A DNA stretch of 18,578 nucleotides from the IMG/VR virus record IMGVR_UViG_2778261535_000010; one strand, 5' to 3'. Below are positions 1 through 18,578 of the stretch, one piece after another (positions within the stretch are counted from its first letter, which is position 1; the number at the start of each line of letters is the position of its first letter). Both the position numbers and the translations under genes were made by a program. The DNA comes from a virus. Its lineage: Duplodnaviria; Heunggongvirae; Uroviricota; Caudoviricetes. Below the pieces are notes generated by a model. The model searched no databases and was not told where the DNA came from. It worked only from the letters and a program-made list of their open reading frames with translations.

Positions 1-444
1 CTCATTCAGCAAATGCTGGATCTGCTTAAAAGCGGTAAAGACGCCGCAACGGGTGATGCTGACACGGTTGATACCCCGGAACAGGCCGCTGATGTGGTGG
101 CAGATGTTGCCGCCCAGATCGCTGATGCTGCCGACGAGGTGGCTGAGCTGGCGCAGGACGTTATCGAAAACCCGGAAGACGAAGTCAAAGCGGAAGAATT
201 CAGCGCCGCCAAAGCCAACCTGGCAAAAGTCATGAAGTCATTCAATGTGACGCCAACGAAGCGCCCGCGCGCCAGCCGTCGCCGTGACTTTTCCGCCCGT
301 CGCCAGCCAGCTGACAACCAGATGGACAACCTTACCACGCAGCTGACTACCGTCCTGACCAAGTTGTCAGCGATGGAAAACGGCAATACGCGCCGCCCTG
401 GCAGTGCGCCAGGCGGAAGCAAAGAACCGTTTGAGTTTGTTTAA
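1..444 (+). CDS. capsid scaffolding protein (gpO-like), 5' partial
   Basis: The reading frame is open from base 1 (LIQQMLDLL...), so the N-terminus is outside the window. Ala/Asp/Glu-rich, directly upstream of the major capsid gene as in P2 (O then N). Confidence 0.7.
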   Translation, partial: LIQQMLDLLKSGKDAATGDADTVDTPEQAADVVADVAAQIADAADEVAELAQDVIENPEDEVKAEEFSAAKANLAKVMKSFNVTPTKRPRASRRRDFSARRQPADNQMDNLTTQLTTVLTKLSAMENGNTRRPGSAPGGSKEPFEFV

Positions 445-7129: not shown

Positions 7130-9244
7130 ATGAGCCACCTGGATTTTACCCTGAGCCTGATCGATAAGCTGACGCGGCCATTAAAAACGGCCCAGTCTTC
7201 GCTGTCTGGCTTTGCTGAAAAATCGCAGGCATCTTTTACAAAAATCGGGATCGGTGCGGCGGCTGTCTGGGGCGTGGCGCAGTCCATCGCGGGCGTGGTG
7301 GGTCCGGCATATGAGATGAACGCCGCACTTGCAGAAGTGGGTTCCAAAGGCGTGGCAGAGGACGCGCTGAAGCGTCTGTCCGGCGAAGCTATGCGATTCA
7401 GTATGCGCTACGGCAAAGGGGCCGTTGATGTGGTCCGGTCAAGCTACGCGATGAAAGGTGCAATGGCGGGCCTGTCCGATCTGGACCTGCCCCGCGTCAC
7501 CATCGCGGCCAATACCCTTGCGGCAGGCGTCAAGGCCAGCGGCGAAGAGGCAGGCGAATACATCGGCGCGATGGCGTCACGTTTCAACGCGGAGTTGTCC
7601 AGTCTGGGCCATGTGCGTTTTGCCGAAGAGCTGGCAGGGAAAACCGCGTACATGGTGCAAAACTTCGGCGTGAAAATGCAGACCATGCAGGAGCTTATCG
7701 AGGGGACGAAAAGTGCCGGTGCTGACTTTGGCGTCAGCCTGGATGAACAGTTCGCCGTCCTGGGTACGCTTTCGCGCACGCTGGGTACTGAGGCCAGCGG
7801 GATCTACGAGCAGTTTTTACGCAGCGCCCCGGCTGCCGCTGAAAAGCTGGGTATGAGCTTTGTCGATGCCACCGGAAAAATGCTGCCGATGGGCGACATT
7901 CTGCAAAAACTCCAGAGTAAATACGGGCAGAGCATTGAAGGGAACGTCAAGGCACAACAGGCGCTGGACGCCGCGTTCGGTGGCGGTGCTGACGTTATCA
8001 AAAAGCTGTACGGCCAGCAGGATAAATTAAATCGCAGTATCACCGAGCTGGGCCGAAACGACGGGATGAAACGCGCCCAGGAAATGGCCGCACGAATGGC
8101 CGAGCCGTGGGAGCGTATCAAAGCGACATTCTTTGCCATTCGCGTGGCGATTGGTAACAGGCTGATCCCTATTCTGTCACCGCTGATGAACCGTATTGCC
8201 GACGTGGGGACAAAATTTGCCCGCTGGCTGGATATGTTCCCGAATATTGCCCGCTGGCTGGGTTACATCACCCTGGGCGTGCTGTCCTTCGGGCTGGCCG
8301 GGGCGGCGGTCAATATCGTGATGGGGGTCTTTGGCTTCACCATGATGGGGCTGGCCGCAATCGCAAAAGTGCTGGGCGGTGCATGGAAACTCCTGTTATG
8401 GACGCTCAACCTGTTGCGTCCGTCCCTGCTGACGACGCGCATCGGTCTGGCCGCATTATGGATCCAGTCAAAATTGCTGGCGTTGTGGACGGGCGTCTGT
8501 CGCATCGCGCTTGCTGCATGGAATATCGCGTTAAAGGCCGGGGCCATTGCCATGCGGGTTTACGGTGCGGCGACCATGTTTGCCGGGGCTGCAATGCAAT
8601 TCCTGATGAGTCCGATCACCCTGATTATTGCCGGACTGGCGCTTCTGGCTGTGGGGGTCTGGTATGTCGTCACCCACTGGGAAGAACTGGCGGCAGCGAT
8701 CATGGATACGGCGGCTTTTGCCTGGGTGATGTCAGTCGCTGAACAGGTGGGACAGGTGTTTGCGCAGGTCTGGCAATCCATTACTGACGGCTGGGCCGTG
8801 GTGGTTGATTTCTTTGCCGGTCTTTCCCCGCTCGCCACCTTTGAAGGGTTCGCACAGACCATCGGCGGGGTATTCAGCAAACTTTTCGACGTCCTCAAAA
8901 ATACCTTTGCATCTACCTATAACTGGATTGTTGAGAAGTTAAACAAGATCCCCGGCGTCAACATCGACCTGAAAACCGTTTCGCCACCGGCAGCGGCTGC
9001 CGTTCCGGCAAACGCGGTCGTTCCTGACAGTGCTGCAGGTTCGTCGAAGCTGAACAGCCCGTCCGTGCTGACGGGGAACCGAATTAATGCAGACATCCCA
9101 CGCGGCGGCCTGATGAGTCAGGTTAAAACCGACAGCAAAACCGCTGTGGATAACCGTAAATCGTGGGGCGACACCTACATCAACGCCCCCAATGGAATCA
9201 CCCCGGCCCAGCTGGCTGAATGGCAGGAGCTTAACGCAGGATGA
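7130..9244 (+). CDS. tail tape measure protein
   Basis: 704 aa; follows the frameshifted chaperone; Ala/Gly-rich with a long central hydrophobic, helix-rich block (NIARWLGYITLGVLSFGLAGAAVNIVMGVFGF...). Confidence 0.85.
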   Translation: MSHLDFTLSLIDKLTRPLKTAQSSLSGFAEKSQASFTKIGIGAAAVWGVAQSIAGVVGPAYEMNAALAEVGSKGVAEDALKRLSGEAMRFSMRYGKGAVDVVRSSYAMKGAMAGLSDLDLPRVTIAANTLAAGVKASGEEAGEYIGAMASRFNAELSSLGHVRFAEELAGKTAYMVQNFGVKMQTMQELIEGTKSAGADFGVSLDEQFAVLGTLSRTLGTEASGIYEQFLRSAPAAAEKLGMSFVDATGKMLPMGDILQKLQSKYGQSIEGNVKAQQALDAAFGGGADVIKKLYGQQDKLNRSITELGRNDGMKRAQEMAARMAEPWERIKATFFAIRVAIGNRLIPILSPLMNRIADVGTKFARWLDMFPNIARWLGYITLGVLSFGLAGAAVNIVMGVFGFTMMGLAAIAKVLGGAWKLLLWTLNLLRPSLLTTRIGLAALWIQSKLLALWTGVCRIALAAWNIALKAGAIAMRVYGAATMFAGAAMQFLMSPITLIIAGLALLAVGVWYVVTHWEELAAAIMDTAAFAWVMSVAEQVGQVFAQVWQSITDGWAVVVDFFAGLSPLATFEGFAQTIGGVFSKLFDVLKNTFASTYNWIVEKLNKIPGVNIDLKTVSPPAAAAVPANAVVPDSAAGSSKLNSPSVLTGNRINADIPRGGLMSQVKTDSKTAVDNRKSWGDTYINAPNGITPAQLAEWQELNAG

Positions 9245-9576
9245 GTACCGAACCGTTATACATCGACCTTTTGATCACTGACGGCGATTTCACGCTGGAC
9301 AGCGGCAACGAGCCGCGCCGTTGCGATAACCGCGACAGCATCACCCAGGACATTATTCACAGCATTCTGGAAAGCGGTATCACCACCCGCCTGATCGGTG
9401 AGCGCAGCCCGACAATGCGCGGTGACGTGCTGACGCAACTGTCCTTACTGGTGGAAAGCGACGAACGTCTGGTCCCCGGCACCATATTGATCACCGAAGA
9501 AACCCTTTCGCGGTTGTATGTCACGGCGGAAACCTACGATTTCGGCCCTGTCGGTACAGAGGTTAACTATGACTGA
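9241..9576 (+). CDS. baseplate protein, possibly gp25/gpW-like wedge
   Basis: 111 aa; ATGA overlap with the TMP stop. Weak gp25-like pattern (DSITQDIIHSILESGITTRLIGER). Sits immediately before the baseplate J gene. Confidence 0.4.
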   Translation: MSTEPLYIDLLITDGDFTLDSGNEPRRCDNRDSITQDIIHSILESGITTRLIGERSPTMRGDVLTQLSLLVESDERLVPGTILITEETLSRLYVTAETYDFGPVGTEVNYD

Positions 9577-10753
9577 GAAACCCGACATTGATTTTGAAAA
9601 AGTGCTGAATGACAGCGGGATGCCCGCGACAGAGGCCGAAATTACGGCGGCATTTAAAGCCACCGTGCAGGCGGAAGGGTTCGTCACAAATACGTCGAGA
9701 ATGTCACCTTTCTGGCGGCTGATTTCGAAGATTGTCACCACGCCGGTGTTATGGCTGCGGGCGGCGCTGATCGATGTGGTTCTGCGCAATATGTTTGTCG
9801 CGACGGCCACCGGTCCAATGTTGCGCCTGCTGGCCTGGGCGGTCCATATCGTGCCTAAACCCGCCAGCGCTGCCGCTGGCGTGCTGCGGTTCTACAAGCT
9901 GAACGCGGCGGATGTGGTCGTCGTGCCAGCCGGAACACTGGTGCAAACCGAGCGTATTAACGGCGTGGTTTACGTGCTGGCCGTGAATGAAGACGTGACG
10001 CTGCCTGCCGGGGTTGAAAGCGGGCTGGTTCCCGTCACGGCGACCGGCACCGGTAGCGGCTATAACCTTGCGCCCGGCTATTACCGGATCTTACCTGTTG
10101 CGGTGGCCGGGATTGCCAGCGCGGTAAACGAGGACGAATGGCTGATTACGCCAGGGGCTAACGAGGAAAGCGACGACGAGCTGCGCGACCGGACCCGCAA
10201 CCAGTTTAATCTGGTAGGTAATTACCACTCTGACGCTATTTACCGCAGCATGATTGCCAGCGTGCTGGGCCTGAGCGTTGATCGCATTTACTTTTTGCAC
10301 GATGCCCCGCGTGGGCCGGGTACGGCAAATGCTTACCTGTTGCTGGACAGTGGCGAAATATCACAGCCCTATATTGATGCGGTTAACGACTATGTGAATA
10401 CCCAGGGCCACCACGGACACGGTGATGATCTGCAGTGTTATGCCATGCCGGAAACCAGCCACACCCTGGCGGTGACGGTCTACGTCAAAAGCGTGGAAAA
10501 CATGGAAGCGGAAGACCTGAACGCGTTAAAAACCGGTATTACTGACCTGATTCGTTGCGCGTTTCGCGAGAACGCCAATTACGACGTTAAAAAGACGCAG
10601 CCCTATTCGCGCTATTCCTTTTCGAATCTGGGCCGCGAGATCCACAAGGCTTTTCCGGTTGTCGATTCACTGCATTTTTCACTGACGGATATTGTCAGCG
10701 AACTGTCGGTCCCGCGCCTGTCAGGGTTAACGGTGGAGGTTGAAAATGACTGA
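9569..10753 (+). CDS. baseplate J-like protein (gpJ/gp47/gp6 family)
   Basis: ATG at 9569 with GAGG 7 nt upstream (the track ORF begins at 9518 without an RBS). About 394 aa. Position between the wedge and gpI-like genes matches P2 W-J-I order. Confidence 0.7.
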   Translation: MTEKPDIDFEKVLNDSGMPATEAEITAAFKATVQAEGFVTNTSRMSPFWRLISKIVTTPVLWLRAALIDVVLRNMFVATATGPMLRLLAWAVHIVPKPASAAAGVLRFYKLNAADVVVVPAGTLVQTERINGVVYVLAVNEDVTLPAGVESGLVPVTATGTGSGYNLAPGYYRILPVAVAGIASAVNEDEWLITPGANEESDDELRDRTRNQFNLVGNYHSDAIYRSMIASVLGLSVDRIYFLHDAPRGPGTANAYLLLDSGEISQPYIDAVNDYVNTQGHHGHGDDLQCYAMPETSHTLAVTVYVKSVENMEAEDLNALKTGITDLIRCAFRENANYDVKKTQPYSRYSFSNLGREIHKAFPVVDSLHFSLTDIVSELSVPRLSGLTVEVEND

Positions 10754-11339
10754 GTTTTCAACCTTGCTTGCCGGTCTGAAATTGCCGTCGTGGCTGAACA
10801 AAGGCGACCCCGCCAGGCTGTTGCGTGGCTGCGTGAAATTCTGGTCGCAGGTGTACGGGTGGATTACCTGGCCGTTAAAGCAGTTTGACCCACTGGTCTG
10901 CCCCGAACCGCTGTTAAACCTGATTGCCTGGGAACGCGACATCGTTCGGTTTAAGGGGGAGCCGCTCGACATTTTCCGCAAACGGGTGAGTTACGCATTT
11001 ATCAATGCGCAGCAGGCCGGAGAGGTGGCGGGCTTTATTGCCATTTTTGAGCGACTGGGGATTGGTTACGTTGAATTACTGGAGCGGCAGGACGGACTCG
11101 ACTGGGATGTGATTGTCGTTCGGGTGACAAACAGTCAGATTGCGGAAAATGGCGATCTCCTGCTGGAAATTATCCGTAAATATGGGCGTACATGCCGCCG
11201 TTACCAATTTGAAGTGATCACAGCCCTGCCACTGAATATCAATATCGGCTGGTATCAGGGGGAATATATTTGCTGGCCTGCCACCCTGAGTGATGTGAAT
11301 AACCAGCCCCAAATAACATACAGCGCAAGTTTGAAGTAG
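10746..11339 (+). CDS. tail protein I-like (baseplate, gpI family)
   Basis: ATG at 10746 with GGAGGT RBS; overlaps the J-like stop by 8 nt. About 197 aa, immediately upstream of the tail fiber. Confidence 0.55.
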   Translation: MTEFSTLLAGLKLPSWLNKGDPARLLRGCVKFWSQVYGWITWPLKQFDPLVCPEPLLNLIAWERDIVRFKGEPLDIFRKRVSYAFINAQQAGEVAGFIAIFERLGIGYVELLERQDGLDWDVIVVRVTNSQIAENGDLLLEIIRKYGRTCRRYQFEVITALPLNINIGWYQGEYICWPATLSDVNNQPQITYSASLK

Positions 11340-11350
11340 AGGAAAAACCT

Positions 11351-13036
11351 ATGTCACAGGCTGTTATTACAAAAGCATTTACAGAGTGGAAAGCCCAGCA
11401 GGCTATTAATAATCAGCCCGTCACGCTGGATGAATTTATTTTTGCGTATATTCCGGGGTTGGATGCTGATAAGCCGATTGATAATACCGAGACAGCACCC
11501 GCAGTGGATAAAATTGTTTATCGTCAGGTGGTGAGTAAATCCGGTGTTGTGAATGAAAACTCTGTCGTTTATTCCGTCACTATGGGGGCGGATGTGGGTG
11601 ATTTTGATTTCAACTGGATCGGTCTGGCAAATAAAGCCACCGGTACACTGGCGATGATTATTCATGCCCCGACCCAGCGTAAAATCAAAAATGCGAACGG
11701 CCAGCAGGGAAACGTTCTGGTCCGTTCCATGCTGATGGAATACAGCGGAGCCAGGGAAGCAACGGAAATTACCACCCCGGCAGAGACATGGCAGATTGAT
11801 TTTACTGCCCGGCTGGCGGCAATGGATGAACGCCAGCGCCGCGAAAATATCGATCTGTATGGCGCAGCGGCTTTTTTTGATTCGGGCTATCTGGTAGCCA
11901 AAACCGGCAATCAATTTTTTGTCACAAAGGGGGCGGGATACGTCGCCGGGTTACGTGCTGAATTGCCCGCAAACATGAATATCACTGCATCCGCGAAGCC
12001 AACAAAGGTCTGGCTTGATGTCAGCTGGACCGGGACGTTAACGAGCGAATGGGCAGTGCAGAGCAAAATCACCGTTGCCGCAGATCTTGCCGATTATGTA
12101 CTGGGCGGTGTGCAGCATTATGTCTTTGCGGTGGCGAGTATTGATGCTACCGGAAATGTCATGGACCTGCGCCCGAAAGGCACGCTGAACCACCAGGCGG
12201 CCAGTGATGCGCTGAAAAAGCATGAGCAGTCGCGAAATCACCCTGATGCCTCAATCAGCGAAAAAGGGTTTGTGCAGTTAAGCAATGCCACGAACAGCGA
12301 TTCCGAGACACTGGCCGCCACGCCAAAGGCAGTAAAAGCGGTGAATGAGAATGCGAATAAGCGCGTTCCTTCCGAACGCAAAGTGAATGGTAAGCCACTG
12401 ACGGAAGATATTGAGATTACGTCGATAACGGGTAATGCAGGGACTGCCACGAAGCTGGCTACAGCCCGCACTATAGGGGGAGTGGGGTTTGATGGTTCGG
12501 CTAACATTAATCTGCCGGGTGTAAACACTCAGGGAAACCAGAACACTACGGGTAATGCAGGGACTGCCACAAAGCTGGCTACAGCTCGCACTATAGGGGG
12601 AGTGGAGTTTGATGGTTCGGCAAACATTAATCTGCCGGGGGTAAACACTCAGGGAAACCAGAACACCACAGGTAACGCTGCAACAGCCACAAAGTTGCAT
12701 ACAGCTCGCACAATTAATGGCGTTGTTTTTGACGGTACGAAAGATATTGCTATTTCAGCAAGTGCGATTGGTTCCTACACAAAAGCGGAATCTGATGCAC
12801 GATTTCAGATAATTGTTCCTGTTTCTGGTGCGGTGGGTACTTATGCCTTCGCCCGAATTGAATCAGGTAATACCACTATTAATTTTGGTTCCACTCTGCC
12901 CGGTTCAGTACTTCGTGCAACATGTGGAGATGGCACTCTGGCCGGTAATGCTCTTGCAGGTACATGGCGATGTTGTGGAGCAACTTGGGGATCTTCCTGG
13001 TACAGTCGAAATACTGTATGGATTCGCATTGTATAA
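11351..13036 (+). CDS. tail fiber protein
   Basis: 561 aa. Contains SETLAATPKAVKAVNE and tandem KLATARTIGGVxFDGSANINL repeats typical of phage tail fibers. Followed by a tail fiber assembly gene. Confidence 0.85.
   Translation: MSQAVITKAFTEWKAQQAINNQPVTLDEFIFAYIPGLDADKPIDNTETAPAVDKIVYRQVVSKSGVVNENSVVYSVTMGADVGDFDFNWIGLANKATGTLAMIIHAPTQRKIKNANGQQGNVLVRSMLMEYSGAREATEITTPAETWQIDFTARLAAMDERQRRENIDLYGAAAFFDSGYLVAKTGNQFFVTKGAGYVAGLRAELPANMNITASAKPTKVWLDVSWTGTLTSEWAVQSKITVAADLADYVLGGVQHYVFAVASIDATGNVMDLRPKGTLNHQAASDALKKHEQSRNHPDASISEKGFVQLSNATNSDSETLAATPKAVKAVNENANKRVPSERKVNGKPLTEDIEITSITGNAGTATKLATARTIGGVGFDGSANINLPGVNTQGNQNTTGNAGTATKLATARTIGGVEFDGSANINLPGVNTQGNQNTTGNAATATKLHTARTINGVVFDGTKDIAISASAIGSYTKAESDARFQIIVPVSGAVGTYAFARIESGNTTINFGSTLPGSVLRATCGDGTLAGNALAGTWRCCGATWGSSWYSRNTVWIRIV
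12428..12750 (+). repeat. in-frame 120-bp tandem repeat inside the tail fiber gene (two near-identical copies plus a diverged third)
   Basis: Copy 1 (12428-12547) and copy 2 (12548-12667) differ at about 5 positions. From 12668 the homology continues but is diverged (GNAATATKLHTARTINGVVFDG). Confidence 0.9.
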
Positions 13037-13049
13037 TTTGGAGGTGCTT

Positions 13050-13448
13050 ATGTTTGAGAATGCAACGATTGATAACCCTCGAACCACAAATATCAATATT
13101 TATATTGATGTGGATATTCACCTGAATGATCAATCAATTACTTTTACTTCGATGCCTGACGACTCCGAAATATATAGTGTTGAGATTTATAAACGCGCTT
13201 TAAATGGCGAGTTTGGAAAAATTATAACTATTGAAAATGATGTTTTTTCGGCAAACAAACTACAAAAAGACATGTTGCAATCAAGGGCGGCTGAATCAAT
13301 TACTGTTCTTGAATATGCGGTTGAATTGAAAATGGCAACGGAAAAGGAAATGCAACTACTCAATGAATGGAAAAAATATGTAGTTTTATTAAGCCGCGTT
13401 AATTTAACAAACCCTAAATGGCCGGAGGTTCCGGGCGATGTGGCGTGA
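13050..13448 (+). CDS. tail fiber assembly protein (Tfa/gpG-like chaperone)
   Basis: 133 aa; GGAGG RBS with ATG at 13050. C-terminal NPKWPEVP motif typical of Tfa proteins. Markedly AT-rich compared with neighbouring genes. Confidence 0.7.
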   Translation: MFENATIDNPRTTNINIYIDVDIHLNDQSITFTSMPDDSEIYSVEIYKRALNGEFGKIITIENDVFSANKLQKDMLQSRAAESITVLEYAVELKMATEKEMQLLNEWKKYVVLLSRVNLTNPKWPEVPGDVA

Positions 13449-16477: not shown

Positions 16478-16515
16478 TCGCCAACGTGCGGCCTTTCGTT
16501 CGTTCGTTCAACAGC
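16478..16515 (+). terminator. putative intrinsic terminator of the late operon
   Basis: GGUCGC/GCGGCC stem (one G-U pair) with a 6-nt loop, followed by the U-rich UUUCGUUCGUUCGUU, about 70 nt after the hub/spike stop. Confidence 0.35.
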
Positions 16516-17045: not shown

Positions 17046-17072
17046 AAAAAATAAGCCCGTGTAAGGGAGATT
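17046..17072. other. P2-type attachment site core (prophage-host junction, attR or attL)
   Basis: AAAAAATAAGCCCGTGTAAGGGAGATT matches the 27-bp P2 att core from memory. It coincides with the 3' terminator half of cyaR. Phage-type sequence lies to the left and host genes to the right. Confidence 0.65.
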
Positions 17073-17132
17073 ACACAGGCTAAGGAGGTGGTTCCTGGTA
17101 CAGCTAGCATTTTATGGGTTATGTTTTTCAGC
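17046..17132 (-). ncRNA. cyaR: CyaR (RyeE) Hfq-dependent small RNA
   Basis: The reverse complement reads GCTGAAAAACATAACCCATAAAATGCTAGCTGTACCAGGAACCACCTCCTTAGCCTGTGTAATCTCCCTTACACGGGCTTATTTTTT, matching the E. coli CyaR sequence as I recall it, including the terminator hairpin and U tail. It lies downstream of yegQ as in E. coli. Confidence 0.85.
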
Positions 17133-17139
17133 GAAACGG

Positions 17140-17216: not shown

Positions 17217-18578
17217 TCACTTACCGTGGGGGTTACGCGTGGTTTCCCCGGAGAAATTACGCATCAGCAGCGCGTAATTTAGCTCAAGATCCTGCGGCAC
17301 CGGGATCCACACAGTATAACCATCGCCTGGTGCGACCGGCATAGCTTCACCTTTGGCGTTTTCCATATGCTCAAGGGTAAAGTTAATGTTGCCTTGCGGC
17401 GTCATCAGCTCAAGGCTGTCGCCAACGGAGAATTTATTTTTCACCGCTACCGCCGCGAGGTCGCCCTTGCGCTCACCGGTAAACTCACCAACAAACTGCT
17501 GGCGGTCAGAAACTGAATAACCGTATTCGTAGTTCTGATAATCGTCGTGAGTATGACGACGCAGGAAACCTTCGGTATAGCCACGATGCGCCAGACCTTC
17601 CAGAGTTTCCAGCAGGCTGGTATCGAATGGTTTGCCCGCAGCGGCATCATCGATAGCTTTACGATAAACCTGTGCGGTGCGTGCGCAATAGTAGAAAGAT
17701 TTGGTACGGCCTTCGATTTTCAGCGAATGCACGCCCATTTTGGTCAGGCGTTCTACATGGGCGATGGCGCGCAGATCTTTCGAGTTCATGATGTAAGTGC
17801 CGTGCTCATCTTCAAACGCGGTCATATACTCGCCCGGACGCTGGGCTTCTTCGATCATAAACACTTTGTCAGTTGGTGCGCCGATACCCAGCGTCGGCTC
17901 AACATTTTGCACCGGAATCGGCTCGTACTTGTGTACGATGTTGCCAACGTCATCTTCTTTCCCTTCCTGGACGTTGTACTCCCAGCGGCAGGCGTTGGTG
18001 CAGGTGCCCTGATTCGGATCGCGCTTGTTGATGTAGCCAGAGAGCAGGCAGCGACCAGAGTAGGCCATACACAGCGCGCCGTGAACGAAGATCTCTACCT
18101 CCATATCCGGCACCTGATTGCGGATCTCTTCAATCTCTTCCAGCGACAGCTCGCGAGAGAGGATCACGCGGGTCAGGCCCATTTGCTGCCAGAATTTCAC
18201 CGTCGCCCAGTTCACGGCGTTAGCCTGTACCGAGAGATGGATCGGCATTTCAGGGAAGTGCTCACGCACCAGCATAATCAGCCCTGGATCGGACATAATC
18301 AGCGCATCCGGCCCCATTTCCACCACCGGTTTCAGGTCACGGATAAAGGTTTTCAGCTTGGCGTTGTGCGGTGCAATGTTGACCACGACATAAAACTTTT
18401 TCCCCAGCGCATGGGCTTCATTAATGCCGAGCTGAAGATTTTCGTGGTTGAATTCGTTGTTGCGCACACGCAGGGAGTAACGCGGCTGGCCCGCATAAAC
18501 AGCATCTGCGCCATAAGCGAAAGCGTAACGCATATTTTTCAGCGTTCCCGCCGGGGAAAGGAGTTCCGGTTTAAACAT
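17217..18578 (-). CDS. yegQ: peptidase U32 family protein YegQ (tRNA hydroxylation protein TrhP)
   Basis: Complete 453-aa ORF; the window ends exactly at its start codon. MFKPELLSPAGTLKNMRYAFAYGADAVYAGQPRYSLRV... matches E. coli YegQ as I recall it. Has the conserved neighbourhood with cyaR. Confidence 0.85.
   Translation of the reverse strand: MFKPELLSPAGTLKNMRYAFAYGADAVYAGQPRYSLRVRNNEFNHENLQLGINEAHALGKKFYVVVNIAPHNAKLKTFIRDLKPVVEMGPDALIMSDPGLIMLVREHFPEMPIHLSVQANAVNWATVKFWQQMGLTRVILSRELSLEEIEEIRNQVPDMEVEIFVHGALCMAYSGRCLLSGYINKRDPNQGTCTNACRWEYNVQEGKEDDVGNIVHKYEPIPVQNVEPTLGIGAPTDKVFMIEEAQRPGEYMTAFEDEHGTYIMNSKDLRAIAHVERLTKMGVHSLKIEGRTKSFYYCARTAQVYRKAIDDAAAGKPFDTSLLETLEGLAHRGYTEGFLRRHTHDDYQNYEYGYSVSDRQQFVGEFTGERKGDLAAVAVKNKFSVGDSLELMTPQGNINFTLEHMENAKGEAMPVAPGDGYTVWIPVPQDLELNYALLMRNFSGETTRNPHGK

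What the first reader, a model, noticed from the sequence alone, without database searches (positions are those of the whole stretch)
12428..12750. Near-perfect 120-bp tandem repeats in the tail fiber gene
Two 120-bp units differing at about 5 positions, plus a diverged third, encode a 40-aa KLATARTIGGVxFDGSANINL-type fiber repeat. Such near-identical in-frame repeats are prone to copy-number change by replication slippage or recombination, which would change fiber length, and they can collapse in short-read assemblies.
Basis: seen in the sequence. Interest (0 to 1): 0.45.

Follow-up and report, generated by a model that had tools for sequence, protein, structure and literature searches.

The report
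Ordinary tandem repeat in tail-fibre shaft
A prophage tail-fibre gene holds two almost identical 120-base copies, plus a shortened third, of a very common 40-residue fibre-shaft building block; the count changes over evolutionary time in related phages but is fixed in every known carrier of this gene, so it is ordinary.

Summary
Window 12428-12667 holds two in-frame 120-bp units that differ at 6 positions (5 synonymous, 1 Gly/Glu). A third unit (12668-12787) keeps only the first ~29 residues of the motif. They lie in the 561-aa tail-fibre gene (11351-13036) of an HP1/P2-like E. coli prophage.

Each unit encodes a 40-residue repeat, consensus xGNAxTATKLxTARTIGGVxFDGSANINLPGVNxxGNQNT. It occurs in more than 5,000 protein clusters, including P1/P7 S, SSU5 and cyanophage fibres, usually as chains of 2-4 at 40-aa spacing. 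It has no Pfam or NCBIfam model. Its only sequence match in the PDB is the trimer-forming C-terminal spike of phage L Dec.

Copy number does change in evolution. Enterobacter sister fibres differ by exactly one unit, and the extra unit looks like an unequal-crossover hybrid.

This allele shows no active variation:
- All 28 contigs carrying it encode 561 aa.
- No shorter or longer variant appears among 5.8 billion proteins.
- The two units are old (dS about 0.17, dN/dS about 0.07).
- Their longest shared exact run is 26 nt, and no 27-mer is repeated, so assembly collapse is not expected.

Verdict: a normal, stable shaft-module duplication of low interest.

The parts
11351..13036 (+). Tail-fibre gene, 561 aa, of an HP1/P2-like prophage
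   Evidence: ORF and translation. Pfam Phage_tail_fib E=2.9e-31 and Phage_fiber_2 E=1.8e-20. PHROG tail-fibre families. The exact protein is present in E. coli assemblies.
11357..11821 (+). N-terminal tail-collar / baseplate-attachment domain (aa 3-157)
   Evidence: PF12571 match over aa 3-157. This part is conserved at 88-90% nt identity in E. coli and Salmonella relatives.
12251..12370 (+). Single Phage_fiber_2 repeat (aa 301-340, ...SETLAATPKAVKAV...)
   Evidence: PF03406 match. It aligns to Mu fibre S, PDB 5YVQ/8JU3. By its conserved Ser/Thr-Pro before a central helix (my reading, not a computed alignment) it corresponds to the T4 gp34/gp12 alpha-beta fibrous repeat described in PMC5537660.
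12363..12411 (+). Mosaic junction: similarity to related prophage fibres ends here, just upstream of the array
   Evidence: megablast matches stop at gene positions 1013-1061. Protein identity to the E. coli O45:H2 fibre falls from ~80-100% to ~5% between aa 341 and 361. GC is 45.5% in the tip against 55% for the window.
12377..12418 (+). Degenerate half-motif RKVNGKPLTEDIEI (aa 343-356) preceding the array
   Evidence: It resembles the RTI.GV.FDG..DI.I part of the unit. Its last 18 nt, 12401-12418, repeat at 12737-12754 with 83% identity (family D7).
12428..12547 (+). Repeat unit 1 (aa 360-399), complete 40-aa unit
12548..12667 (+). Repeat unit 2 (aa 400-439), complete; 114/120 nt identical to unit 1
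   Evidence: dS 0.173, dN 0.0115.
12668..12754 (+). Repeat unit 3 (aa 440-468), truncated and diverged; it lacks the LPGVNxxGNQNT linker
   Evidence: The same kind of terminal unit closes the arrays in the Enterobacter and Cronobacter fibres.
12755..12805 (+). Neck motif SASAIGSYTKAESDARF (aa 469-485) between shaft and tip
   Evidence: Conserved in the Enterobacter, Cronobacter and P0093 fibres. A weak, non-significant alignment places it opposite Mu S' residues 410-434.
12806..13033 (+). C-terminal tip domain (aa 486-561, ...GTWRCCGATW...WIRIV), presumed receptor-binding part
   Evidence: Homologous tips in Cronobacter P0058 and P0093 and in Hafnia phage yong2. No Pfam match. The receptor-binding function is inferred from position only.
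13050..13448 (+). Tail-fibre assembly chaperone (132 aa)
   Evidence: Caudo_TAP match. Gene call in the identical contig L079. PHROG tail-fibre assembly families.

Best explanation
The array is an in-frame tandem duplication of one structural module of the tail-fibre shaft.

What it is:
- Each 120-bp unit encodes one copy of a very widespread 40-residue repeat.
- By analogy with the related C-terminal spike of phage L Dec, this repeat folds only in the trimer, as an intertwined beta structure (inferred).
- Two complete units and a truncated closing unit sit between the conserved baseplate-proximal part of the fibre and the neck plus receptor-binding tip. Together they set the length of the distal shaft.

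How it arose and behaves:
- The extra unit arose by unequal homologous recombination or slipped mispairing between neighbouring units. This happened either in this lineage or in the donor of the distal cassette (inferred from the pattern; the same kind of event is visible in Enterobacter sister fibres).
- Both units have since been kept under purifying selection.
- Unit number changes on evolutionary time scales across the family. In this prophage lineage it is fixed; the array is not a fast-switching locus.
For: Shown:
- The repeat is real and in frame.
- The gene is a tail fibre. It follows Baseplate_J and a weak, below-cutoff gpI-like gene, and is followed by its chaperone.
- The repeat family is large: 5,065 representative proteins at E<=1e-3 and 499 at E<=1e-30 out of 1.84 billion.
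- Spacing between motifs is 40 aa (225 times) or 37 aa (72 times). Uninterrupted chains run from 1 to 10 units, with 3 the commonest, as here.
- The motif is present in the P1/P7 S, SSU5, 9g, Goslar and cyanophage P-TIM68 fibres.
- Within a genome, complete units are 87-95% identical in DNA. Between genera they are 63-76% identical. Duplication or homogenisation is therefore lineage-specific.
- Enterobacter fibres of 693 and 653 aa differ by one exact unit. The extra unit matches the downstream unit at most informative sites up to position 90 and the upstream unit at positions 96-116 (exceptions at 18 and 77, two unique sites). That is the hybrid unequal crossing-over would give.
- dS is 0.173 and dN 0.0115 between units 1 and 2. 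The single amino-acid difference falls at position 20, one of the more variable positions of the family profile.
- The allele is invariant in length in all carriers.
- A profile of the unit hits only Dec residues 97-131 in the PDB (E=3.3e-4). That segment is unfolded in monomers, forms a three-chain intertwined spike and holds the trimer together (PMC6449081 and PMC11398494).
Against: - No experimental or confident predicted structure of the unit was obtained. The AlphaFold2 monomer model had pLDDT 59.7, so 'one unit = one trimeric shaft segment' rests on analogy.
- The direction of the event (gain or loss) and its place (in situ or in a donor fibre) cannot be decided.
- Nothing here measures the effect of fibre length on adsorption.
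- Look-ups of carriers are by exact protein sequence, so they cannot themselves reveal variants. The absence of variants rests on the homology search.
Confidence: 0.85

Rival explanations
1. The array is an actively variable (contingency-like) locus. Frequent slippage or recombination between the near-identical units changes fibre length within populations.
For: - Unit gain or loss has happened in related fibres.
- 120-bp arrays are common in fibre genes, and some are 94-99% identical.
- Duplication of a small adhesin domain can expand host range in T4 (Tetart et al. 1996, J Mol Biol 258:726, listed in the references of PMC3157838).
Against: - All 28 contigs with this allele encode 561 aa.
- The 90%-identity cluster has only two members, both 561 aa.
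- The next-best protein in 5.8 billion is a different fibre, at 861 against 1233 bits.
- Gene DNA differs by 0-1 nt among carriers, while the two units differ by 6 nt in 120. The duplication is therefore far older than the lineage and has not been homogenised.
- Exact shared runs are 23, 14, 19, 15, 17 and 26 nt. From my own knowledge, that is at or below the minimal efficient pairing length for RecA recombination.
- The unit length is a multiple of 3, so no on/off switching is possible.
Confidence: 0.06
2. The two near-identical units are an assembly artefact: either a spurious duplication, or the remnant of a longer array collapsed by short-read assembly.
For: Tandem repeats longer than the k-mer can be mis-assembled in general. 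Most carriers are short-read assemblies.
Against: - No 27-mer or 31-mer occurs twice in the window, so a de Bruijn graph has no ambiguity here.
- Independent pipelines (NCBI, an ENA metagenome assembly, Logan) give the same 561-aa product.
- The six differences are 5 synonymous to 1 non-synonymous and keep the frame, as expected of real, selected sequence.
Confidence: 0.02
3. The repeat units are themselves ligand-binding elements, for example weak carbohydrate binders that add avidity, rather than passive spacers. Duplication would then change binding rather than length.
For: - The motif is unusually conserved: ~81% aa identity over 73 residues between this E. coli prophage and a Prochlorococcus phage.
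- The Dec authors speculate that their C-terminal spike could bind carbohydrate (PMC6449081).
Against: - Conservation across phages of very different hosts argues for a structural constraint, not host-specific recognition.
- The variable parts of these fibres are the tips downstream.
- The same unit occurs in a capsid decoration protein, where it acts as a trimerisation spike.
Confidence: 0.07

Closest known systems
Tail fibre proteins S of phages P1/P7 and fibres of SSU5-, 9g- and Goslar-type phages, which carry the same 40-aa repeat
   Same: They contain the same motif (A.KL.TAR.IGGV.FDGS.NI.LPGVN..GNQ.T) in tandem at 40-aa spacing, at 73-79% aa identity over 2-3 units. Related long fibres in viral contigs carry several clusters of 2-4 units.
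   Different: The proximal domains, tips and phage types are different. In P7 the motif lies in the invertible C segment (Sv'). Here there are no flanking inverted repeats and no invertible segment.
Enterobacter hormaechei and Cronobacter turicensis prophage fibres (P0002 693 aa, P0008 653 aa, P0058 619 aa)
   Same: They share the gene neighbourhood of Baseplate_J, fibre, Caudo_TAP, a 240-aa protein and HP1_ORF34. They share the N-terminal domain, and the array is closed by the same kind of truncated unit and the AYTKAE.DAR neck. The Cronobacter tip is homologous to this one.
   Different: They carry an extra ~105-aa domain between the Phage_fiber_2 repeat and the array, which is absent here. 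They have 3, 2 or 1 complete units against 2 here. The Enterobacter tip is unrelated.
C-terminal spike of phage L decoration protein Dec (PDB 6E3C)
   Same: It is the only solved-structure entry whose sequence matches the unit profile (residues 97-131, ANAETADKLSTARTI...GSASFDGSANVTI, E=3.3e-4). It is a trimer-only, intertwined beta structure.
   Different: It is a single copy with a 7-residue insertion, and it sits on a capsid decoration protein, not a fibre. That part of the deposited model was homology-built at low resolution, so it gives no atomic answer.
T4 gp34/gp12 repeats (Pfam Phage_fiber_2) and the T4 gp37 domain duplications
   Same: These are tandem, in-frame structural repeats in trimeric fibres. 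The duplication of a small fibre domain, arising by recombination between repeated motifs, is a documented route of fibre evolution (PMC5537660; Tetart 1996, cited).
   Different: Phage_fiber_2 is a different, alpha-beta repeat. It is present here once, at aa 301-340, upstream of the array. The 40-aa unit has no Pfam model.

Membership tests
P2/HP1/Mu-type tail-collar fibre protein | N-terminal Phage_tail_fib (PF12571) domain | tested here: met
   E=2.9e-31, aa 3-157, above the curated cut-off
P2/HP1/Mu-type tail-collar fibre protein | Position after the baseplate J/I genes, followed by a Caudo_TAP assembly chaperone | tested here: met
   Baseplate_J at 9518-10753; a Tail_P2_I-like gene at 10740-11339 (E=0.0012, 19.2 bits, just below the 20.6-bit cut-off); Caudo_TAP at 13050-13448
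40-residue fibre-shaft repeat (xGNAxTATKLxTARTIGGVxFDGSANINLPGVNxxGNQNT; defined here, not curated) | Match to the unit consensus, including the invariant A7, L10, R14, I16, G18, F21, G23 and I27 | tested here: met
   Units 1 and 2 match at all invariant columns. Unit 3 matches up to I27.
40-residue fibre-shaft repeat (defined here, not curated) | Tandem arrangement at 40-aa (or 37-aa) period inside fibre proteins | tested here: met
   Spacing is 40, 40 here. 40 aa is the dominant spacing in homologues.
40-residue fibre-shaft repeat (defined here, not curated) | Forms a trimeric intertwined beta segment of the shaft | not testable with these tools
   Only a monomer prediction was possible, and it was of low confidence (pLDDT 59.7). 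The inference comes from the Dec spike.
Contingency / rapidly variable tandem-repeat locus | Copy-number polymorphism among closely related carriers | tested here: not met
   28 contigs all give 561 aa, and there is no length variant in the protein database
Contingency / rapidly variable tandem-repeat locus | Long uninterrupted identity between units | tested here: not met
   The longest exact run is 26 nt, and there are six differences per 120 nt
Invertible tail-fibre segment (Mu G, P1/P7 C, Min type) | Inverted repeats flanking alternative 3' fibre exons on opposite strands, plus an invertase | tested here: not met
   No convincing inverted repeats around the fibre 3' end. All the downstream gene calls are on the + strand.
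Diversity-generating retroelement (template/variable repeat pair) | Two ~100-150-bp repeats that differ only at positions that are adenine in the template copy, with a reverse transcriptase nearby | tested here: not met
   The differences are G/A, C/T, G/A, T/A, T/G and T/C, so they are not adenine-specific in either unit. The units are adjacent and in frame. No reverse-transcriptase domain appeared among the window proteins scanned.

The most novel reading that the evidence does not exclude
The 40-residue unit may be an uncurated and structurally unsolved major building block of phage fibres.
- It is found in more than 5,000 protein clusters at 50% identity, from enteric prophages to marine cyanophages, with ~81% identity across that span.
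- It has no Pfam or NCBIfam model.
- No experimentally resolved structure contains it. The only PDB sequence match is the unresolved Dec spike.

If so, this short fibre would be a convenient minimal system: two and a half units directly joined to a small tip, with a cognate chaperone. It could be used to solve the fold and to test how unit number sets fibre reach.
Probability: 0.5. Interest if true: 0.3.

Novelty: new member of a known kind. Interest (0 to 1): 0.15.

Why it matters
It matters little for biology at large. In-frame tandem repeats in fibre shafts, and their gain and loss by recombination, are an established theme of tail-fibre evolution.

The case is still useful in three practical ways:
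- It shows that a 95%-identical 120-bp repeat need not be unstable or mis-assembled.
- It documents a clean one-unit polymorphism, with a hybrid unit, in Enterobacter.
- It flags a very abundant fibre repeat that curated domain libraries and the PDB do not yet cover. That gap affects the annotation and modelling of receptor-binding proteins used in phage and tailocin engineering.

Tried and rejected
- **Searches with the whole fibre.** megablast of the whole fibre gene against phage and complete E. coli genomes matched only the proximal 60%. None of the 5,426 complete E. coli genomes carries this distal module. A sensitive blastn of the distal part found only 75-78%-identical repeat DNA in other fibres, mostly on phage-plasmids.
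- **PDB sequence searches.** The whole protein hit only Mu fibre S, through the Phage_fiber_2 region. The distal 206 aa gave nothing meaningful. The unit profile hit only Dec.
- **Domain libraries.** Pfam at E<=10 on the repeat gave only chance sub-threshold hits, DUF6160 and Myco_arth_vir_N. NCBIfam gave nothing.
- **Structure prediction.** An AlphaFold2 monomer model of aa 340-561 had pLDDT 59.7 and pTM 0.27. That is too poor for a fold search, so none was run.
- **Viral contigs.** A scan of IMG/VR with the tip region found many fibres through the repeat motif but none with this tip.
- **Alternative mechanisms.** An invertible segment was rejected. A DGR template/variable repeat pair and a phase-variable contingency locus were also rejected; see the membership tests.
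- **Minus-strand ORFs.** ORFs overlapping the array on the minus strand (12238-12528, 12278-12700) were treated as by-products of the repeat and not pursued.
- **Literature.** The RBPseg atlas paper and the Prochlorococcus phage paper gave only general statements about fibre repeats.

Full report
**1. The observation**

Tandem Repeats Finder reports a single strong array in the window: 12428-12711, period 120, 2.4 copies, 90% matches, no indels, score 463. An independent repeat finder gives 12428-12547 and 12548-12667 at 95% identity.

Five are synonymous and one changes Gly to Glu. The units start in frame 0 of the enclosing gene.

The third unit (12668-12787) differs at 52-55 of 120 positions and resembles the others only over its first ~80-87 nt. 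Translation gives TGNAGTATKLATARTIGGV(G/E)FDGSANINLPGVNTQGNQNT twice, then TGNAATATKLHTARTINGVVFDGTKDIAI.

**2. The gene and its setting**

The array lies in ORF 11351-13036 (561 aa). Pfam finds the N-terminal tail-collar fibre domain (aa 3-157, E=2.9e-31) and one Phage_fiber_2 repeat (aa 301-340, E=1.8e-20). PHROGs places the protein in tail-fibre families.

Gene order around it:
- Upstream: P2-family capsid, small terminase, gpL, gpR, HP1 Orf24, tape measure, DUF2590, Baseplate_J and a gpI-like gene.
- Downstream: a Caudo_TAP chaperone (13050-13448), a 240-aa protein, an HP1_ORF34 baseplate protein and a 574-aa baseplate/spike-like protein.

This is therefore the late region of an HP1/P2-like prophage. 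It ends next to the CyaR sRNA gene (17049-17134, minus strand) and a peptidase U32 gene.

The exact protein, and a variant with one substitution, are recorded from E. coli.

**3. Anatomy of the fibre**

From N to C terminus:
- The attachment domain.
- A proximal shaft.
- One Phage_fiber_2 unit. By its Ser/Thr-Pro signature I equate this with the alpha-beta fibrous repeat solved in T4 gp34/gp12 (PMC5537660). It aligns to Mu fibre S in the PDB.
- A degenerate half-motif, RKVNGKPLTEDIEI (aa 343-356).
- Two complete 40-aa units (aa 360-439).
- One truncated unit (aa 440-468).
- A conserved neck, SASAIGSYTKAESDARF.
- A 76-aa tip with a WRCCGATW motif.

Similarity to related E. coli and Salmonella prophage fibres stops at gene positions 1013-1061, just upstream of the array. 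Protein identity to the E. coli O45:H2 fibre collapses between aa 341 and 361. The tip is 45.5% GC against 55% for the window. The repeats therefore belong to a distal cassette (repeats, neck, tip and chaperone) that is exchanged as a block among these prophages.

**4. The repeat family**

A 120-residue query covering the three units finds 5,065 representative proteins (50%-identity clusters) at E<=1e-3, 2,384 at E<=1e-10 and 499 at E<=1e-30, out of 1.84 billion.

Features of the family:
- In the best 138 of the newly returned representatives the motif is spaced 40 aa (225 times) or 37 aa (72 times). Uninterrupted chains contain 1-10 units, with 3 the commonest. Earlier samples agree.
- Hits include phage P1/P7 S, SSU5, 9g, Goslar and Aeromonas, Shewanella and Acinetobacter phages. 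Cyanophage P-TIM68 is ~81% identical over 73 aa.
- About a quarter of 80 viral-contig fibre loci have period-120 DNA arrays of 1.8-3.9 copies at 72-94% identity.
- The consensus is xGNAxTATKLxTARTIGGVSFDGSANINLPGVNTxGNQNT.
- No Pfam model and no NCBIfam model covers it.

In the PDB, a profile of the unit matches only residues 97-131 of the phage L decoration protein Dec (E=3.3e-4). That segment is unfolded in the monomer, forms a three-chain intertwined spike in the trimer and provides essentially all trimer contacts. Its atomic structure is not experimentally established (PMC6449081 and PMC11398494).

My monomer AlphaFold2 model of aa 340-561 was poor (pLDDT 59.7), as expected for an obligate trimer. 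I did not use it for fold searches.

**5. Does unit number vary?**

Across the family, yes.
- Enterobacter hormaechei fibres P0002 (693 aa) and P0008 (653 aa) sit in the same gene neighbourhood. Outside one exact 40-aa indel they differ at 17 of 1,497 and 6 of 465 nt.
- In the longer allele, the extra unit agrees with the downstream unit at most informative sites up to position 90. It agrees with the upstream unit at positions 96-116. There are two exceptions (positions 18 and 77) and two unique sites. This is the hybrid expected from unequal crossing-over, or equally from the reverse deletion.
- Cronobacter turicensis carries a tip homologous to this one behind only one complete unit.
- Homologous long fibres in viral contigs carry clusters of 2 or 3 and of 3 or 4 units.
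- Complete units within one genome are 87-95% identical in DNA, but only 63-76% identical between genera. Duplication or homogenisation is therefore lineage-specific.

In this allele, no.
- The exact 561-aa proteins occur on 6 + 22 contigs from NCBI, ENA and Logan assemblies.
- Their 90%-identity cluster has just two members, both 561 aa.
- The gene is identical in L079 and differs by one nucleotide, outside the array, in L083.
- In the search of 5.8 billion proteins the next hit after the self-cluster (1233 bits) is a different Enterobacter fibre (861 bits). No 521- or 601-aa version exists there.
- Between the two units dS is 0.173 and dN is 0.0115. The duplication is therefore far older than the spread of this prophage, both copies are under purifying selection, and they have not been homogenised.
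- The single amino-acid difference falls at position 20, one of the more variable positions of the unit profile.

**6. Recombination and assembly**

The six differences cut the units into exact runs of 23, 14, 19, 15, 17 and 26 nt. From my own knowledge, that is around or below the minimal efficient processing segment for RecA-dependent recombination in E. coli. This fits the observed stability.

No 27-mer or 31-mer is repeated anywhere in the window. k-mer assemblers therefore face no ambiguity, and the concern about collapse does not apply. Independent assemblies agree.

**7. Alternatives examined**

- Invertible fibre segment: excluded. There are no flanking inverted repeats, and all the downstream gene calls are on one strand.
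- DGR template/variable pair: excluded. The differences are not adenine-specific and the units are adjacent and in frame.
- Frame-shifting contingency repeat: excluded, because the period is a multiple of three.
- A ligand-binding role for the units: cannot be excluded. It is made unlikely by the extreme conservation across phages of unrelated hosts and by the use of the same motif as a trimerisation spike on a capsid protein.

**8. Verdict**

The finding is a correct description of an ordinary feature: a duplicated shaft module in a mosaic tail fibre.

There is no sign of ongoing variation or of assembly problems at this locus.

The one mildly noteworthy point is that this very abundant 40-aa fibre repeat appears to have neither a curated domain model nor a solved structure.

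Noticed in passing
window 17049-17134 (- strand): A full-length CyaR/RyeE sRNA gene (Rfam RF00112, 100.7 bits) lies between the end of the prophage late region and the peptidase U32 gene (17217-18578, - strand). The prophage therefore sits next to cyaR, which from memory is a known insertion region for P2-like elements in E. coli. The attachment site itself was not mapped.
   Followed up: partly
window 12363-12411 and 12668-13036: The fibre is mosaic. Similarity to E. coli and Salmonella relatives ends just before the repeat array, and the tip has 45.5% GC against 55% for the window. This suggests a distal cassette (repeats, tip and chaperone) acquired by recombination at the conserved motif.
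   Followed up: partly
L083 1780-3894, compared with window 7130-9244: In one metagenome contig carrying the same fibre allele, the tape-measure gene is called as two ORFs (518 + 180 aa) instead of the single 704-aa ORF of the window. It may be a frameshift or nonsense change, meaning a decaying prophage in some carriers, or an assembly error.
   Followed up: no
alignment A2, between fibre aa 357 and 360: The Enterobacter and Cronobacter fibres carry an extra ~105-aa domain (QDIFNGQAVGIGDAADL...WIKQYDAGNKP) between the Phage_fiber_2 repeat and the 40-aa array. It is absent from this fibre, which makes this one an unusually compact version.
   Followed up: no
window 12806-13033: The small tip domain has a cysteine-containing motif, GTWRCCGATW...WIRIV. 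It is shared with a 744-aa metagenomic fibre (P0093) and, as WRCMG, with Cronobacter. It has no Pfam match, and its receptor is unknown.
   Followed up: no
window 103-154: A 21-bp tandem repeat (2.5 copies, 75% matches; GATGCTGCCGCCCAGATCGCT) lies inside the first ORF (13-444, no Pfam match), just upstream of the P2-type capsid gene.
   Followed up: no
window 16495-16509: A perfect TTCG microsatellite (3.8 copies) lies in the non-coding stretch between the 574-aa baseplate/spike-like gene and the prophage end.
   Followed up: no
window 12813-13448: The mechanical 211-aa ORF with a TTG start overlaps the 3' end of the fibre gene. It is only an upstream extension of the chaperone reading frame. 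The gene called in identical contigs starts at 13050 (132 aa).
   Followed up: yes
L147 3001-3413 and L117 844-1562: Other viral-contig fibre genes contain much more perfect arrays: 123-bp period, 3.4 copies, 99% identical; and 222-bp period, 3.2 copies, 95% identical. These would be better candidates for recent or ongoing copy-number change than the window's array.
   Followed up: no
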